Positions 30,496-40,982 of a DNA stretch of 64,000 nt are shown in pieces. The DNA lies in the IMG/VR virus record IMGVR_UViG_3300036766_000889; one strand, given 5' to 3'. Under the pieces are notes generated by a model. That model made no database searches. It was not told where the DNA came from and worked only from the letters and a program-made list of their open reading frames with translations. The DNA is from a virus. A program made the position numbers and the translations under genes. The number at the start of each line of letters is the position of its first letter. Positions within the stretch are counted from its first letter, which is position 1.

Positions 30496-31665
30496 TCATC
30501 CTTTAACACAGAGAATTTCTTTGAGACACGCCATAATCTCTACTAAATCTACCTGATAGGCCATAACTTGATCCAAGTCTTTGTAAGCACCTGGTATCTC
30601 ATCCAAAACTCCTTGGTCTTTTCGGCATTCGACTCCTGCCGTTTGTGCAGCCAAGTCCTCTAATGTGAACGTCCGTTTAGCAGCTCCACGGGACATTTTT
30701 CGTCCCGCCCCATGTGATGCTGAATGAAACGATTCTAAATTACCTAATCCGCGTACGATATAAGACTTAGTACCCATGGATCCAGGTATAATCCCCATTT
30801 CACCCAAGCGAGCAGATATGGCACCTTTGCGCGTCACCAACACTTCCTCTCCGAAGTGATTCTCTTCAGAGACATAATTATGGTGACACGTTATGGGCAC
30901 TTCATATTTGACTTGTGGGAACATTTTGAACATTATATCCAAACTGATTTTCAACATGATCTGTCGGTTGGCTAATGCGTAATCTTGACACCAATTTAGA
31001 TCGCGCCGATATGCATCCATTTCAGTAGTCCCAGATAGAAATACTGCTAGATCCCTATCTGGTAATGCTTGGTTGTGCGTCAACTGCATGGCCTTACCGA
31101 TGTGGATCTCAGCTAACGTCTTACCGATATTACGAGATCCGGAATGCAACATTATCCATACACTTTGATCTTCATCTAAGCAAAGAGACCAAAAATGATT
31201 GCCGCCTCCGAGCGTCCCCATTTGCTTGCGTGCTTTGCCAAGAATATCCTGAACTTTGTCATGCAAATTATGAAATTCGTCCCATAATTTATGCTTGTCA
31301 GCATATTTATTAGTATACTCATGAGCGTTGAACCCGACAGGGATCTTCGCTTCAATCTCCAGCCGCAACGCTTGCAGCGAGTTCGGGAGATCTGATGCCA
31401 TGAGGTTGGTTTTAACTGCGATCATTCCACAGCCAATATCCACACCTACCGCGCTTGGAGATACCGCACCCTTCATAGCGATTACAGAACCTACCGTCGC
31501 TCCTTTGCCATAGTGGACATCAGGCATGACCGCAATATGATGGAAAACCCAAGGTAGAGAAGCAACGTTTCTTAGTTGGTCTAGGGCGCTACTCTCAACC
31601 TCATGAATTGGCACCCACAACTTAACCGGAACAGTCTTCCCTTTAATTTCTGAAATTGACATCAC
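30496..31665 (-). CDS. rtcB: RNA ligase RtcB
   Basis: MPDVHYGKG, GVDIGCG, GTLGGGNHF, HSGSR, CHHNY, SHGAGR, DEIPGAYK. Confidence 0.97.
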   Translation of the reverse strand: MMSISEIKGKTVPVKLWVPIHEVESSALDQLRNVASLPWVFHHIAVMPDVHYGKGATVGSVIAMKGAVSPSAVGVDIGCGMIAVKTNLMASDLPNSLQALRLEIEAKIPVGFNAHEYTNKYADKHKLWDEFHNLHDKVQDILGKARKQMGTLGGGNHFWSLCLDEDQSVWIMLHSGSRNIGKTLAEIHIGKAMQLTHNQALPDRDLAVFLSGTTEMDAYRRDLNWCQDYALANRQIMLKISLDIMFKMFPQVKYEVPITCHHNYVSEENHFGEEVLVTRKGAISARLGEMGIIPGSMGTKSYIVRGLGNLESFHSASHGAGRKMSRGAAKRTFTLEDLAAQTAGVECRKDQGVLDEIPGAYKDLDQVMAYQVDLVEIMACLKEILCVKG

Positions 31666-32252
31666 AAACCCTCACCGATTTCCCACCGAATGAATCGTCG
31701 GATATTAACCTTTTCACCAAGCTTGGCGCTTAATTCTACTTGAATTTGTTCGATGGTCTTACCTGGCATGGCCACCGATTCCTGCTCAAGCAAGCAGACC
31801 TCGGAACACCACTTCATATACTTGCCCGAGAAAATCTTCTGTTTCCGATCCTCTGGAACATCCACAGGAATTTGAGCCCTAAACACAGCTTCTTGGGCTT
31901 CCCACGCTTCTAAGGGAACCTGTTGTTCACGCACTGCCAACGGGGATGTCGCTACGATTTGAAACATCACCAAATCAGCGAATTGTTTGAAGTCAACAGA
32001 TTTCGCTGCAAAGTCCGTCTCGCAATTGATTTCAACCACAGCAACGATCTTCCCATCACTGTGGTTGTAGGAAAACACCTTGCCTTCGGTCGCAAGTCGC
32101 CCCGCCCGTTCGGCAGCCTTGATGATGCCGCGCTTCTTGAGCAACTCCAGCGCTTGCTCCACATCGCCACCTGACTCTTCAAGCGCTTTACGACAAGCAT
32201 CCATCCCGACGCCCGATCGCATTCTAATTTCTTTGATTTTTTCTACACTCAT
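31662..32252 (-). CDS. tsf: translation elongation factor Ts (short form)
   Basis: IKEIRMRSGVGMDACRKAL...EINCETDFAA...IRRFIRW. Confidence 0.95.
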   Translation of the reverse strand: MSVEKIKEIRMRSGVGMDACRKALEESGGDVEQALELLKKRGIIKAAERAGRLATEGKVFSYNHSDGKIVAVVEINCETDFAAKSVDFKQFADLVMFQIVATSPLAVREQQVPLEAWEAQEAVFRAQIPVDVPEDRKQKIFSGKYMKWCSEVCLLEQESVAMPGKTIEQIQVELSAKLGEKVNIRRFIRWEIGEGL

Positions 32253-33639: not shown

Positions 33640-34197
33640 ATGGAATTGAAATTATGTCGAAAATGTGGACAGGAAAAACCTTTGATAAAATTTCCGAAAC
33701 AGAGGAAAAATCCTATGAAAAGGACAAGTCCCTGTCTCAGATGCTCAGAGAAAAAACGATTAAATAATCCAAATAGTGTAATCGGGAAAACTGTTTTACG
33801 CAGAAGAAAACTGTATTTATCAAATCCAAATAACATTCCTTCTATCATTATTCGGAGCGCGAGACATTATGATAAAACTCATACTAAATACGGTTTTGAC
33901 TTGGATCATGATTTTGTTTCTGCATTAATTGCAGATGGATGTAAATACTGTGGTATTAATAATGTGAGGATGACGCTTGATCGTATTGATAATCAGTTAG
34001 GACATCTGAAATCAAATGTTCATCCAGCTTGTGTGCGATGCAATCATATCCGTGGTTCAATGCCATTTGATGCCTGGATGAATATGGTTCCTTCGATTCG
34101 AAAGACGTATGAACTTGGTCTATTCGCAGATTGGTGGATCGACACCAAGTCCATTTATAAATCAAATATCATACCATTTGTCTCTTCTAGTACCTAG
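33640..34197 (+). CDS. HNH-type homing endonuclease
   Basis: CKYCG...TLDRIDNQLGHLKSNVHPACVRCN. Confidence 0.8.
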   Translation: MELKLCRKCGQEKPLIKFPKQRKNPMKRTSPCLRCSEKKRLNNPNSVIGKTVLRRRKLYLSNPNNIPSIIIRSARHYDKTHTKYGFDLDHDFVSALIADGCKYCGINNVRMTLDRIDNQLGHLKSNVHPACVRCNHIRGSMPFDAWMNMVPSIRKTYELGLFADWWIDTKSIYKSNIIPFVSSST

Positions 34198-34799
34198 GGT
34201 TCTAGTTCAGCGTCCCAATACAACCAAGAACGCCAGCATTCTGGAATGTCCTTTATAGATTCCATACGTAAAGCTGCAATCGGAAGCGACTTGGGACGTA
34301 CCGGCTGATTCAAAAGGTACATACCGGCTTCAGCGGGCGTACGATTACGCTTGATGGAGTTGCACGGGTAGCAACTCATCACGATGTTCTCCCAGACCGT
34401 TTTACCGCCTTGGGCACGAGGAATTACATGATCAAAATTCAGATCACGCATATTGTGCTTGGCTCCGCAATACTGACAAGCGAACTTGTCTCGAGTCAGC
34501 ACGTTGATCCGGCTGAACTTCACTACTTTCTTCTTGCCGATCTTACCGAGCAGTCGGATTACGGCCGGAACCCTAACCACGAACGTATCCGGGTCAGAGT
34601 CCTCCACGCCAAGCTCGAACCAGGCAAGCATCTGCTTGCTGACCTGCAAGCCATTAGCTGCGTCCCTGGAAATAGCCCGGACAACGTCCGTGTACAGCTC
34701 TACGACTTCAGCACGACCGTCGTGAAGAAGCTGGGCAGCACGCTGCCAACTCACGACTCGGTGAGGTTGAAAACCAATATCTAGGACTAATGTTCTCAT
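34194..34799 (-). CDS. HNH endonuclease (McrA-like)
   Basis: RDKFACQYCG...DHVIPRAQGG..WENIVMSCYPCN. Confidence 0.9.
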   Translation of the reverse strand: MRTLVLDIGFQPHRVVSWQRAAQLLHDGRAEVVELYTDVVRAISRDAANGLQVSKQMLAWFELGVEDSDPDTFVVRVPAVIRLLGKIGKKKVVKFSRINVLTRDKFACQYCGAKHNMRDLNFDHVIPRAQGGKTVWENIVMSCYPCNSIKRNRTPAEAGMYLLNQPVRPKSLPIAALRMESIKDIPECWRSWLYWDAELEP

Positions 34800-34811
34800 A
34801 TTAATTATTAA

Positions 34812-34937
34812 GTGGTAACAAAATTTAGTGATTCAATTTCAGCTGCTCTACCACTGAGCTATACATAACTTTCGCTATGTAATTGGACTTGAACCAATGA
34901 CCCGCTGTTTGGTTGTAGAACCACCGGCATTTACCAC
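34812..34937 (-). ncRNA. yrlA: YrlA-type Y RNA with permuted tRNA-like module
   Basis: Terminal stem GTGGT/ACCAC; T-arm (TTGGTTCAAGTCCAA), closed acceptor-like stem (ACATAGC-GAAA-GTTATGT), then D-arm (AGCTCAGTGGTAGAGC); just downstream of Ro60. Confidence 0.85.
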
Positions 34938-34968
34938 ACAATAAATGGAAACTATACCATAAACATAT

Positions 34969-35172
34969 GCTGACAACAAGGTTCGCAGAGATGTTTACAT
35001 TATCGGTGTAATCCCATGCAGCATTTGTCAACGTTATTTATACTGACAACGAAATTCGTAGAGATTTTTACAGTTTAAATGTAATCCCTACAGCATTTGT
35101 CAGCGTTATTTGTACTGACGACAAAATTTACAGAGATTCTTTTTACCTGTAGTCCCTGCAGCATTCGTCAGT
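34969..35172 (-). repeat. three tandem ~60-nt Y-RNA-like hairpin units (34969-35032, 35042-35104, 35114-35172)
   Basis: Each unit reads YTGACRAATGCTGYA(T)GGGAYTACA...ATCTCT...TTGT/TCGT..GTCAG, closed by a terminal stem; conserved spacer (G)TAYAAATAAC. Confidence 0.8.
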
Positions 35173-35178
35173 GTTATT

Positions 35179-36735
35179 TTATCCTACACCTATCATTTTC
35201 TCAATCTTTTCGACCCAGGCATCTTTATTGCCACCGTCAATGAAACTTGAAATCACACCGAACACTGCATCACTGAAACCACCAACGTTCAAACGGTCTT
35301 CATCGGTGATTACTTGTGCAGTTTGATTCGGTGTTAGGTCAATACACACAAGCTTGGCTTTACGATTACGCCTCTTGAAAGACAACCACTCGGTCGATAA
35401 ACCGGTACCTCTACGATAACCCCTATCAGCCCAGCTTTCGTTGTCGGAGACATATATCACAAGGTCAGCATTTGCATTTTCCTCGTTAAGCAAAGCGAGT
35501 GGAGCAGAACAGGTGGTACCGCCGCCTCCCACACTTGCAATTTGGGTAGCTAGAGTCATCACACTATCACGAGGATTGATCTTCAAATCAACAACATCTG
35601 TTTCAAACGGGATAACTCTTGCGTTTGGATTCTTGCGCAAAATCGCGGCAGCAATCAACGCAGCTATGTCTATGCAACGAGCCTTAGATGTAGCACCTTG
35701 ACGTTGTCCAGTAATCGGGCTACTCATGCTACCGGAAACGTCTACACAGACTACAACGTTACAATTGTAGCTCGGCACGTTGTTCAGCGAATGCTCCATC
35801 GCGTCCTGTAACGCGTTGGTCAATTCGGCAGGAATGTCAGTTGCATTCAAATATGCCATAAGTAGCTGGTATGGAAATACCCGCGCCTTATTGATTTCAT
35901 CAACATTGCGCAAACGTGCAGCCAGTAGACTAACCATTTCTGGGTTGTCTAGCACACCGTGACGCTTGAACGTGTTGAGATTCATACGAGTCATCTGCCA
36001 ACCAGCATTCTTTGCAACGGTTGTCCAGCCAGCCGTATCAAGATTAAGAGAGTCTAGCATCTGAAATGGGACGTCCGGGATGATCTGACTACGGTCAACC
36101 TTATAATTCTCGTACGCACGTACGAGCTCCGGAAGGTGTTCGACAGTATACGGCTTACCAATTAGATAAGCATACAACGCCTTACGATCGTCGCTAACCG
36201 GGTTCGGGCGAACCATCTTAACCAGATCAGATAGAGACGGCTTCTTTCCGACGCTATCTCGGAAAAGTTGGTCCGATGACCGAGATGCAAACCATTCACG
36301 AAGCATGCGTCGAGGAGCAGAACCAAAGGACTTACGGGACGTCTTACCAGATCGGACAATTTGCGCGAAATTTCTCGCCATTTTGCCATTATCGATAACT
36401 CGTGGAAACACAAGCTTAGCTGCAAGTAAGCCTTCTGGACCACGAGAACATAAATGCGCAAGCAAAATCGCTGGCATATCCTTCATATGACCAAGTTGGC
36501 GTGCATATACAGCGACTTTAGCCACATAACTAACTTCACAGTTAGCTGCGTGCTTCAAAACTTCATCCAACTGGTCAGACGCAGCAGCATAGTACGTGTT
36601 ACCGAAGCAACCGGTAGACGCAATTTGAGCAAGAGCTTGCTTTGACGTAAGCGAGTATGCATTCCCACCGGCATGATTTACAGCCGTTGAAACATGAGCC
36701 TGAGGCAGAGTGTTAAATAGTTGTTGATTTGTCAT
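35179..36735 (-). CDS. rsr: Ro60/Rsr TROVE-domain RNA-binding protein with vWA domain
   Basis: NHAGGNAY, MTRMNLNTF, RVFPYQLL, DVSGSM (MIDAS), GGT.CSAPL, SDNESW. Confidence 0.95.
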   Translation of the reverse strand: MTNQQLFNTLPQAHVSTAVNHAGGNAYSLTSKQALAQIASTGCFGNTYYAAASDQLDEVLKHAANCEVSYVAKVAVYARQLGHMKDMPAILLAHLCSRGPEGLLAAKLVFPRVIDNGKMARNFAQIVRSGKTSRKSFGSAPRRMLREWFASRSSDQLFRDSVGKKPSLSDLVKMVRPNPVSDDRKALYAYLIGKPYTVEHLPELVRAYENYKVDRSQIIPDVPFQMLDSLNLDTAGWTTVAKNAGWQMTRMNLNTFKRHGVLDNPEMVSLLAARLRNVDEINKARVFPYQLLMAYLNATDIPAELTNALQDAMEHSLNNVPSYNCNVVVCVDVSGSMSSPITGQRQGATSKARCIDIAALIAAAILRKNPNARVIPFETDVVDLKINPRDSVMTLATQIASVGGGGTTCSAPLALLNEENANADLVIYVSDNESWADRGYRRGTGLSTEWLSFKRRNRKAKLVCIDLTPNQTAQVITDEDRLNVGGFSDAVFGVISSFIDGGNKDAWVEKIEKMIGVG

Positions 36736-36780
36736 GATCTAACCTATAATAACATACAATCAAATAAGTTGTTTCAATCG

Positions 36781-36854
36781 TGCTGTGCGCGAGACTCGAA
36801 CTCGCAACCTCTCGGACCTAAACCGAGCGCCTCTGCCAATTGGGCTACCACAGC
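36781..36854 (-). tRNA. tRNA-Leu(TAG), short variable loop
   Basis: Cloverleaf; anticodon loop TTTAGGT. Confidence 0.85.
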
Positions 36855-36861
36855 AAAACAA

Positions 36862-37009
36862 CGGATGGGTTGGACTTACACCAACAGAGCGCCTGGGCTG
36901 GAGTCGAACCAGCTTCTTACCGTTCAGGAGCAAGCTCGTCAGCTTCGCAGCCTCGGTCGATATTCAGCTCGCTAGCAGCCTATTCCCGCCATTCACTGCG
37001 TTGCCATCC
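36862..37009 (-). ncRNA. unassigned tRNA-like RNA with two T-loop hairpins
   Basis: Terminal GGATGG/CCATCC stem; GCTGG-TTCGACT-CCAGC and GTTGG-TGTAAGT-CCAAC. Confidence 0.45.
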
Positions 37010-37095
37010 TGGTGCAAGAGATGGGATTTGAACCCATAAGACCTTTCGGTCGGATGATTTTAAGTCATCTGCGTATTCCATTCCGCCACTCTTGC
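37010..37095 (-). tRNA. tRNA-Leu(TAA)
   Basis: Long variable arm; encoded CCA. Confidence 0.95.
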
Positions 37096-37117
37096 GTAAC
37101 GATTGATCTATTAAATC

Positions 37118-37219
37118 AACCAACCACCAAACAATGCGGGCATCGAACCCACTCAGGTTTCACAGCAGTCTCCAGAGTTGCCACGCCCTGCTGGGGCTAC
37201 TCTTGTTTGGCGGTTGGTT
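37118..37219 (-). ncRNA. tRNA-shaped RNA with 17-bp terminal stem
   Basis: AACCAACCGCCAAACAA/TTGTTTGGTGGTTGGTT; D-like GCCC/GGGC; T-arm GTGGG-TTCGATG-CCCGC. Confidence 0.55.
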
Positions 37220-37262
37220 CATTAAACAGAGTTGCATACGACCCAATTAACTGAATTTACAA

Positions 37263-40590: not shown

Positions 40591-40982
40591 TGTGGACTCG
40601 TGCGGAATCGAACCGCAGTCCTACAAGACTAACGAGCAGCTTCTACGTGTGTATCTGGAGTTCCGAGTGTTAATAAGCACCCCGGTGTCCCAGCCTCCAT
40701 GCTTTGGGGCGCGACAGGTTTCCCTGCTTTGCCTCCACCATCTGTCTGTAAAGTGAACTTCCCACAGCCGTCAGAACGCCGTGGCACAGGTTGCTTTTAA
40801 TCACGCCGCACGGAGTCGATGGCAACTACCTACTCCGTGCAACGGTTTCACGCGGCCTTTAGGACCGGTGCAACATATGCGTTGTCGTTCGCACTTACGT
40901 TGGTCTCTTGATAACCCGGCCTGAAGACCATCCGGGACACGCTGCTACTTATATCATCTCGCAGTCGAAACCTTTCGAGCCC
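40591..40982 (-). ncRNA. ssrA: tmRNA; tag (A)ANDNAYVAPVLKAA* at 40848-40892
   Basis: 5' GGGCTCGAAAGGTTTCGAC, 3' GGTTCGATTCCGCACGAGTCCA; G3-U70 pair; resume site after TAAGT. Confidence 0.95.

What the first reader, a model, noticed from the sequence alone, without database searches (positions are those of the whole stretch)
34812..35172. Ro60 followed by an array of three minimal Y-like RNAs and one full YrlA
Immediately after the Ro60 stop are three ~60-nt diverged repeats with a conserved spacer, then a YrlA-type RNA with a permuted tRNA module (T-arm, closed acceptor, D-arm). All four share one scaffold: terminal stem, AATGC..GG..YTACA on the 5' side, and AAT/AACYTYGT on the 3' side. The terminal stems show compensatory changes (CTGACA/TGTCAG, CTGACG/CGTCAG, GTGGT/ACCAC). 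The three short units keep only the presumed Ro-binding helix and replace the effector module with different short loops. Established: Rsr/Y RNA pairs occur in bacteria and some phages, often near rtcB. Inference: this is a tandem family of minimal Y RNAs acting as Ro60 gates or decoys, or as variable-loop adaptors.
Basis: partly seen in the sequence, partly recalled or inferred. Interest (0 to 1): 0.85.

Follow-up and report, generated by a model that had tools for sequence, protein, structure and literature searches.

The report
Phage Ro60 gene with four Y RNAs
A large tRNA-rich phage carries a gene for the RNA-binding ring protein Ro60, followed by three short hairpin RNAs and one tRNA-like RNA that all share the known Ro60-binding handle, which makes it an ordinary, if tidy, new example of the bacterial and phage Ro60/Y-RNA system.

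Summary
Everything lies on the minus strand. A TROVE+vWA Ro60 gene (35179-36735) is followed, 6 nt after its stop codon, by three tandem 59-64-nt hairpins (U1-U3). These are separated by a conserved 9-nt A/U-rich spacer. A YrlA-type RNA follows (34809-34938; Rfam RF02553, 64.5 bits, E 1.8e-14, just under the gathering score of 69).

A covariance model built only from U1-U3 found about 140 matches beside Ro60 genes in other phage and metagenome contigs, all but one on the Ro60 strand. Their two helices covary strongly: 93% of cells pair, against 30-54% in slid controls. A broader model found 357 units in 102 of 125 loci. Of these loci, 64 have three or more units, 10 have three or more short units, and 56 of the 67 with both kinds have a short unit first. 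The window's layout is therefore typical.

The short units match the known short hairpin Y RNAs (Salmonella and M. smegmatis YrlB, Deinococcus Yrn2). Phage Ro60 with two Y-like RNAs has been studied experimentally (Thermus phage phiLo, 2025).

Verdict: a new member of a known kind. Ro60 binding and function are inferred, not shown. The scan has also noted Y-RNA-like arrays beside Ro60-like genes on other DNA; I did not test those notes.

The parts
35179..36735 (-). Ro60/Rsr gene (518 aa; TROVE ring plus vWA domain)
   Evidence: Pfam finds vWA_Ro60 at 4.2e-20 and TROVE at 6.2e-6. PHROG 850 'RNA-binding protein' scores 1e-45. More than 8000 full-length homologues were found; the best named ones come from Myxococcota and Verrucomicrobiota genome bins at about 55% identity. 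Identity to Myxococcus phage Mx1 is 47.8%.
35114..35172 (-). Short hairpin Y RNA U1 (59 nt). It has the handle P1 ACUGACGA/UCGUCAGU, AAUGC, and P2 UGCAGGGA/UCUCUGUA. It has no apical helix.
   Evidence: The fold gives -17.8 kcal/mol with z -3.6. Model R1 scores 73.1 bits and R2 58.4 bits. It contains GACGAAUG, an exact match to the GNCGAAN0-1G motif of PMC4201824.
35042..35104 (-). Short hairpin Y RNA U2 (63 nt). It has the handle plus an apical UACA/UGUA helix with loop UUUAAAC.
   Evidence: The fold gives z -4.1. R1 scores 89 bits and R2 65.7 bits. The apex resembles units in L072, L073 and L071.
34969..35032 (-). Short hairpin Y RNA U3 (64 nt). It has the handle with one bulged U, and an apical UACA/UGUA helix with loop CCGAUAA.
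   Evidence: R1 scores 82.1 bits and R2 62.4 bits. The fold z-score is only -0.8. The 5' C to U change in P1 leaves a U.G wobble pair.
34809..34938 (-). YrlA-type Y RNA. It has the handle GUGGUAA/UUACCAC, AAUGC, and CGGUGGUUC/GAAUCACU, plus a tRNA-like module (T-arm, closed acceptor-like stem, D-arm).
   Evidence: Rfam RF02553 scores 64.5 bits (gathering score 69), E 1.8e-14, over model positions 1-114. R2 scores 42.9 bits. The near-identical contig L053 carries a compensatory U-A to C-G change in the acceptor-like stem.
35173..35181 (-). First copy of the conserved 9-nt A/U-rich spacer (UAAAAUAAC; it includes the Ro60 stop codon). Further copies lie at 35105-35113 and 35033-35041.
   Evidence: Read directly from the sequence and part of the 72-nt repeat unit. 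A role as a processing site is inference.
30496..31665 (-). RtcB RNA ligase gene, on the same strand 3.1 kb downstream (context; a likely functional partner)
   Evidence: Pfam RtcB scores 5.4e-122. The linkage of rsr, Y RNA genes and rtcB is documented in PMC7790460.

Best explanation
This is a canonical Ro60/Y-RNA cassette carried by a large phage. It sits inside a long block of genes on one strand that also holds 33 tRNA genes, a tmRNA, an HD-domain protein, EF-Ts and RtcB.

Shown here:
- The Ro60 gene is intact.
- The four downstream elements share the conserved handle: a terminal stem, a 5' GAAUGC internal loop, a second helix, then UACA, with a 3' strand ending in a YUUGU-like sequence.
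- This handle defines hundreds of RNAs next to Ro60 genes and on the same strand, and its helices covary.
- One of the four elements carries the YrlA tRNA-like module.
- The three short units arose by local tandem duplication of a roughly 70-nt unit made of spacer plus hairpin.

Inferred:
- The region is transcribed with the Ro60 gene, or through it from the tRNA cluster, as one precursor.
- The precursor is cut in the single-stranded A/U-rich spacers, plausibly by a host RNase E-type enzyme.
- Each product is bound on the outer face of the phage Ro60 ring through the 5' strand of the handle and is stabilised by that binding.
- By analogy with Deinococcus Yrn1, Salmonella YrlA and Thermus phage phiLo, YrlA would tether Ro60 to a partner such as host PNPase, or act as a tRNA look-alike.
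- The short units would either gate the Ro60 cavity or present different small apical loops to other partners.
- The setting next to tRNAs, tmRNA and RtcB suggests a role in RNA quality control or repair during infection.
For: Ro60 domains were found.

Model R1, built only from U1-U3, found 147 matches at E<1 in Ro60 loci, 146 of them on the Ro60 strand. On the 94 best matches, 93.3% of cells pair, against 30-54% in slid controls. Changes on both sides occur at 17 of 21 pairs, and 0 of 500 shuffles reach the observed covariation.

Short units outside the window, analysed alone (141 distinct), pair at 95-99% in the core of P1 and 89-100% in P2, with 4-6 pair types at most of these pairs. G.U is the commonest pair at one P2 position, which fixes the RNA strand.

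Model R2 hits the window only at these four places. It also hits the enterobacterial YrlB at 40.1 bits.

The layout is typical: 102 of 125 loci have units, 64 have three or more, a short unit comes first in 56 of 67 loci with both kinds, and the median gap is 17 nt.

The near-identical contig L053 keeps the array with 5 differences. Two form a compensatory pair in YrlA and one restores a pair in U1.

From the literature: Rsr binds the short hairpin Y RNAs YrlB and Yrn2 (PMC4201824), and a phage Ro60 binds two phage Y-like RNAs and host PNPase (PMC12135203).
Against: No expression, processing or binding data exist for this phage, and its host is unknown.

YrlA scores below the Rfam gathering score (64.5 against 69). 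Rfam YrlB (RF02565) gives no match to U1-U3 even at E<=10.

U3 folds no better than shuffled sequence (z -0.8). U1 has lost the apical helix and has a C.A mismatch in this window.

The only close relative with DNA available (L053) is 98-100% identical over most of the region, so it adds little evolutionary power.

The alignments used for pair counts were fitted to the model structure.

The closest cultured phage, Mx1, has a related Ro60 gene but no such RNA within 3 kb, so the pairing is not universal.
Confidence: 0.8

Rival explanations
1. Only YrlA, and perhaps one short unit, is a working Y RNA. The other short units are recent duplicates that are decaying and have no function of their own.
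For: U1 lacks the apical helix and carries a C.A mismatch. U3 has a bulged U and a fold z-score of only -0.8. The three units are each other's nearest relatives, so the duplication is local.
Against: All three units keep both handle helices through compensatory or wobble changes. All three score 58-66 bits with the general model, among the top four matches of the phage-contig search. Ten other loci keep three or more short units, and the arrays of L130 and L111 are conserved unit by unit at 79-89% identity.
Confidence: 0.1
2. The hairpins act in cis on the Ro60 mRNA, as 3'-end stabilisers, processing signals or attenuators, and are not free Ro60 ligands.
For: They begin 6 nt after the stop codon and are stable stem-loops.
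Against: No terminator-like site lies in the array, and no U-tract follows the stems. The conserved single-stranded GAAUGC and UACA motifs are the same as in YrlA. In other loci, such as L010, L012 and L019, the same hairpins lie upstream of Ro60. Short hairpin Y RNAs are bound by Rsr in three studied species (PMC4201824).
Confidence: 0.05
3. The repeats are DNA-level elements, such as protein-binding iterons or promoters, or they are chance repeats or a small coding ORF (34825-35031, minus strand).
For: A promoter-like match, TTGAGA-17-TAAAAT, ends at 35176. U3 begins with TTGACA. A mechanical 68-aa ORF overlaps U3 and YrlA.
Against: Promoter-like sites are no more frequent than in shuffled sequence (2 found, 5.3 expected). 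The matches are strand-specific (353 of 353 on the Ro60 strand). G.U pairs and two-sided compensatory changes point to RNA structure. The ORF overlaps a full-length YrlA alignment.
Confidence: 0.03

Closest known systems
Salmonella Typhimurium rsr-yrlB-yrlA-rtcBA operon (Chen et al. 2013, 2014, PMC4201824; Hughes et al. 2020, PMC7790460)
   Same: The order is the same: Ro60 gene, short hairpin Y RNA, YrlA, all on one strand, with rtcB downstream. The handle is nearly the same. The enterobacterial YrlB reads GCGCGAAUGCUGGCCGGGAUUACA...GAAUUUGUCGCGC (L002). U1 reads CUGACGAAUGCUGCAGGGACUACA...AAUUUUGUCGUCAG. My general model hits both.
   Different: The window has three short units where the enterobacterial locus I read (L002) has one. 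The cassette lies in a phage tRNA/tmRNA block, with an HNH endonuclease gene and several other ORFs between it and rtcB. I saw no RtcR or RtcA, though I did not search for them. Rfam YrlB does not match the units.
YrlA family, Rfam RF02553 (254 bacteria and 22 phages in PMC4201824)
   Same: The fourth element aligns over the full model, with T-arm, acceptor-like stem, D-arm and handle.
   Different: The score is 4.5 bits below the gathering score. An extra 9-nt insertion lies between the handle and the tRNA-like module.
Short hairpin Y RNAs: M. smegmatis YrlB and D. radiodurans Yrn2 (PMC4201824)
   Same: These are long hairpins with a small loop, encoded beside rsr, co-transcribed with other Y RNAs, and bound or stabilised by Rsr.
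   Different: Those loops were described as pyrimidine-rich, and M. smegmatis YrlB may carry a T-arm. The loops here are A-rich or mixed. Binding has not been tested here.
Thermus phage phiLo Ro60 with Yrl1 and Yrl2 (PMC12135203, 2025)
   Same: It is a phage-encoded Ro60 with several adjacent Y-like RNAs. Binding to Ro60 and a ternary complex with host PNPase were shown in vitro.
   Different: The phiLo RNAs lie upstream of the gene, and there are two. The phiLo protein is only about 22% identical to this one.

Membership tests
Ro60/Rsr protein | TROVE (HEAT-repeat ring) domain followed by a vWA domain, at full length | tested here: met
   Pfam finds TROVE at 6.2e-6 and vWA_Ro60 at 4.2e-20. 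The protein is covered at 99% by homologues of 515-530 aa.
Bacterial/phage Y RNA | Encoded within a few kb of the Ro60 gene, on the same strand | tested here: met
   U1 starts 6 nt after the stop codon. All four elements lie within 370 nt on the same strand.
Bacterial/phage Y RNA | 5' and 3' ends pair into a stem that carries the conserved 5'-strand motif GNCGAAN0-1G | tested here: met
   U1 has GACGAAUG, an exact match. U2 and U3 have GACAAAUG, where G to A is compensated by C to U on the 3' strand. YrlA has GGUAAAUG. In relatives, the exact motif occurs in 52 of 139 short and 116 of 210 long units, and the relaxed form YRAAUG in 105 of 139 and 192 of 210. Covariation of the stem is shown.
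Bacterial/phage Y RNA | Bound by Ro60, and dependent on it for accumulation | not testable with these tools
   This needs immunoprecipitation, a gel-shift assay, or Northern blots with and without Ro60.
YrlA (Rfam RF02553) | Handle plus a permuted tRNA-like module (T-arm, acceptor-like stem, D-arm) | tested here: met
   The alignment is full-length, with all three arms paired and GGUUCAAGUCC and AGCUCAGUGGUAGAGC present. L053 shows a compensatory change in the acceptor-like stem.
YrlA (Rfam RF02553) | Score at or above Rfam's gathering score (69 bits) | tested here: not met
   The score is 64.5 bits with E 1.8e-14, and the element is absent from the whole-window search at gathering thresholds. 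This is a curated cut-off and not a structural feature.
YrlB (Rfam RF02565) | Match to the Rfam covariance model | tested here: not met
   No match at E<=10 over 34700-35300. The same model scores 105.5 bits on the enterobacterial loci L002 and L003. BLASTN searches with YrlB found orthologues only in Salmonella enterica serovars (PMC4201824).
YrlB-type short hairpin Y RNA (architecture) | Ro60 handle closed by a short apex, with no tRNA-like module | tested here: met
   ARAGORN finds no tRNA between 34000 and 36779. Model R2 hits both the units (58-66 bits) and the enterobacterial YrlB (40.1 bits).

The most novel reading that the evidence does not exclude
Short hairpin Y RNAs with the handle P1-GAAUGC-P2-UACA may form a broad family that is not yet catalogued. 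It would be the usual first gene after rsr in many phyla and phages, and Y-RNA genes would commonly form arrays of 3 to 10.

Rfam at gathering thresholds finds none of the 25 units in four array-rich loci. The 2014 survey stated that hairpin-type Y RNAs eluded bioinformatic discovery.

In phages, such arrays would supply one Ro60 ring with a set of interchangeable adaptors that differ only in their apical part. I could not read the 2019 and 2020 reviews, so prior description cannot be excluded.
Probability: 0.3. Interest if true: 0.55.

Novelty: new member of a known kind. Interest (0 to 1): 0.35.

Why it matters
The locus adds a clean phage example of Ro60 with four Y RNAs. It sits in the middle of a translation and RNA-repair block (tRNAs, tmRNA, EF-Ts, RtcB), which fits the idea that phages bring their own RNA quality-control kit.

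The more useful product is the handle model derived from these three units. It recovers several hundred Y RNAs that Rfam thresholds miss. It also shows that a short hairpin followed by tRNA-like Y RNAs, often in long arrays, is the normal layout. That gives a concrete way to annotate Y RNAs, and a set of natural handle variants for binding studies.

Tried and rejected
- A DNA search of the locus against 50,697 phage records found nothing.
- No whole genome is held for this window.
The closest Ro60 relatives at 61-67% identity (P0002-P0006) could therefore not be examined for their RNAs. Only a 98% near-identical contig and relatives at 56% identity or less were available.
- Rfam YrlB does not match the short units.
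- The two best 'phage' protein hits after Mx1 (L002, L003) turned out to be enterobacterial rsr-yrlB-yrlA-rtcB fragments filed as unverified phage records. I used them only as a reference for YrlB.
- Myxococcus phage Mx1 has no handle RNA within 3 kb of its Ro60 gene, even with filters off, so it is not a ready test system.
- I compared the window with L053 to look for excess conservation of the array. The background identity is already 98-100%, so the comparison says little.
- The terminator, promoter, tRNA and small-ORF readings were rejected.
- Two review papers (PMC10870794, PMC6542706) are not held.

Full report
**What is there**

The finding lies on the minus strand. ORF 35179-36735 encodes a 518-aa protein with TROVE and Ro60-type vWA domains. 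It has thousands of full-length homologues.

Its stop codon TAA is at 35181-35179. Six nucleotides later the first of three repeats begins:
- U1: 35172-35114
- U2: 35104-35042
- U3: 35032-34969

Tandem Repeats Finder reports a 72-nt period, 3.0 copies and 78% matches. Each unit is preceded by the 9-nt spacer (U/A)(A/C/U)AAAUAAC, and the first copy contains the stop codon.

After a 30-nt gap comes a 130-nt element (34938-34809). It aligns over all 114 positions of Rfam YrlA, with T-arm, closed acceptor-like stem and D-arm. The score is 64.5 bits with E 1.8e-14, against a gathering score of 69.

An HNH endonuclease ORF starts 10 nt further on (34799).

**Structure of the short units**

Each short unit folds in the same way:
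- a terminal stem P1 of 7-8 bp
- a 5' AAUGC internal loop opposite a 3' strand of 7 nt (AAUUUUG, AAUUUCG or AACCUUG)
- a second helix P2 of 8-9 bp
- UACA

U2 and U3 close the apex with a UACA/UGUA helix and a 7-nt loop. U1 has lost that helix.

Between units, P1 changes G-C to A-U, and C-G to U.G. P2 changes C-G to U-A, G.U to G-C, and U-A to U.G. YrlA has the same handle with different helix sequences (GUGGUAA/UUACCAC and CGGUGGUUC/GAAUCACU).

**Is it more than chance, and is it conserved?**

I built covariance model R1 from U1-U3 alone. I searched it against 132 loci fetched through the Ro60 protein: 49 phage contigs from IMG/VR, 80 metagenome contigs and 3 GenBank records.

R1 gave 147 matches at E<1, and 146 were on the Ro60 strand. 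Most lay directly after or before the gene.

On the 94 matches with E<0.01:
- 93.3% of cells form standard pairs, against 30-54% when the 3' partners are slid by 1-3 columns
- 17 of 21 pairs show changes on both sides
- none of 500 shuffles reaches the observed covariation score

The alignment was fitted to the model, which favours pairing, but the slid controls and the number of pair types per position make the case clear.

Model R2, built from those matches, found 382 matches at E<0.01, all on the Ro60 strand. In the 64-kb window it hits only the four elements described. In the 7.6-kb Mx1 locus, with filters off, its best score is 8.2 bits.

Taking only short units (90 nt or less) outside the window, 141 distinct sequences, the core of P1 pairs in 95-99% of sequences and P2 in 89-100%, with 4-6 pair types at most of these pairs. 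G.U is the commonest pair at one P2 position, which fixes the transcribed strand.

UACA sits at nucleotide 21-22 in 127 of 139 short units and is present in 138 of them. It is also present in 208 of 210 long units. RAUGC occurs in 133 of 139 short and 206 of 210 long units.

**How typical is the layout?**

After removing duplicate loci:
- 102 of 125 sources carry at least one unit, 357 in all
- 92 have two or more, 64 three or more, 25 five or more, and 3 have nine or ten (L015, L048, L104)
- 88 loci have a short unit, 40 have two or more, and 10 have three or more
- in 56 of the 67 loci with both kinds, the 5'-most unit is short
- the median gap between units is 17 nt

The window's arrangement (short, short, short, YrlA) is therefore a common pattern and not an oddity. 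Its three short units are each other's nearest relatives. They also share the spacer, so they arose by local duplication.

**Closest relative**

Contig L053 (Ro60 98% identical) has the same array with five differences in about 390 nt:
- one restores a U-A pair in U1
- two lie in the spacer before YrlA
- two form a compensatory U-A to C-G change in the YrlA acceptor-like stem

Most of the neighbourhood is 98-100% identical, so this comparison has little further power.

**Context**

The window looks like a large phage. It has a DNA polymerase, helicases and several homing endonucleases. It has 33 tRNA genes and a tmRNA on the same strand upstream. It also carries an HD-domain protein, and EF-Ts and RtcB downstream.

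No terminator-like site lies in the array. A promoter-like match ends at 35176, but such matches are no more frequent than in shuffled sequence.

**What is known**

Chen et al. 2014 (PMC4201824) reported YrlA RNAs beside Ro60 in 254 bacteria and 22 phages. [quoted passage not shown] They remarked that such RNAs eluded bioinformatic discovery.

The Salmonella operon is rsr-yrlB-yrlA-rtcBA (PMC7790460). The enterobacterial YrlB in L002 has almost the same handle as U1-U3, and R2 hits it at 40.1 bits. The narrow Rfam YrlB model, however, does not match the phage units.

A phage Ro60 has been shown in vitro to bind two adjacent Y-like RNAs and to form a complex with host PNPase (Thermus phage phiLo; PMC12135203).

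**Mechanism**

Shown: the gene, the four RNAs' shared and covarying handle, the tRNA-like module in one of them, and the typical layout.

Inferred from the studied systems:
- co-transcription with rsr
- cleavage in the A/U-rich spacers
- binding of each RNA to the outer surface of Ro60 through the 5' strand of the handle
- a tether or tRNA-mimic role for YrlA
- a gate or alternative-adaptor role for the short units

I put 0.8 on 'real Y RNAs that bind the phage Ro60'. The particular roles are far less certain.

**Verdict**

This is a new member of a known kind.

The wider pattern may deserve a note of its own: a general short-hairpin Y RNA family and long Y-RNA arrays that Rfam thresholds miss. 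I could not check the 2019 and 2020 reviews.

Earlier notes of this scan describe Y-RNA-like arrays beside Ro60-like genes in other genomes. I did not test them and they carry no weight here.

Noticed in passing
L015:4753-6818, L048:4589-5763, L104:4690-5897: Arrays of 9-10 Y-RNA units sharing the handle lie directly after Ro60 genes, in two IMG/VR phage contigs and one metagenome contig. Rfam at gathering thresholds finds no YrlA or YrlB in L015, L130, L075 or L004.
   Followed up: partly
L075:4891-4963: A tRNA gene sits inside a five-unit Y-RNA array. This recalls the Yrn2-tRNA(Asp)-Yrn1 precursor of Deinococcus (PMC4201824).
   Followed up: no
L002:1-1748 and L003:1-2244 (OR845705.1, OR851267.1): Two GenBank records labelled as unverified Escherichia and Salmonella phages are fragments of an enterobacterial rsr-yrlB-yrlA-rtcB operon. 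They also hold a third Y-RNA-like element (L002:1076-1188; RF02553 31.7 bits, R2 37.9 bits) between YrlA and rtcB.
   Followed up: partly
L001 (Myxococcus phage Mx1, 56915-58564 of the record): The closest cultured-phage Ro60 (47.8% identity) has no RNA with this handle within 3 kb, even with filters off (best score 8.2 bits). Its Y RNAs, if it has any, lie elsewhere or are different.
   Followed up: partly
window 35176-35204 (-): A promoter-like match, TTGAGA-17-TAAAAT (10 of 12), has a second hexamer that overlaps the Ro60 stop codon. It would start transcription at about the first base of U1. It is not above chance in the scan (2 found, 5.3 expected).
   Followed up: no
window 34194-34799 (-); L004:4633-5936: An HNH endonuclease ORF starts 10 nt after YrlA. 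In the phage contig L004, two ORFs (284 and 150 aa; family not tested) separate Ro60 from its two short Y RNAs. This suggests that mobile genes insert around this cassette.
   Followed up: no
window 36660-37260 and 33650-34560: Against the near-identical contig L053, identity drops from 98-100% to 81-89%, with indels, in the tRNA-Leu and spacer region upstream of Ro60 and in the 3' part of the HNH gene and the ORF beyond it. The two genomes are mosaic.
   Followed up: partly
window 30496-32252 (-), 40592-40982 (-): RtcB (5.4e-122) is preceded by a short EF-Ts homologue whose ORF overlaps its start. A tmRNA (103.6 bits; tag ANDNAYVAPVLKAA) lies in the tRNA cluster.
   Followed up: partly
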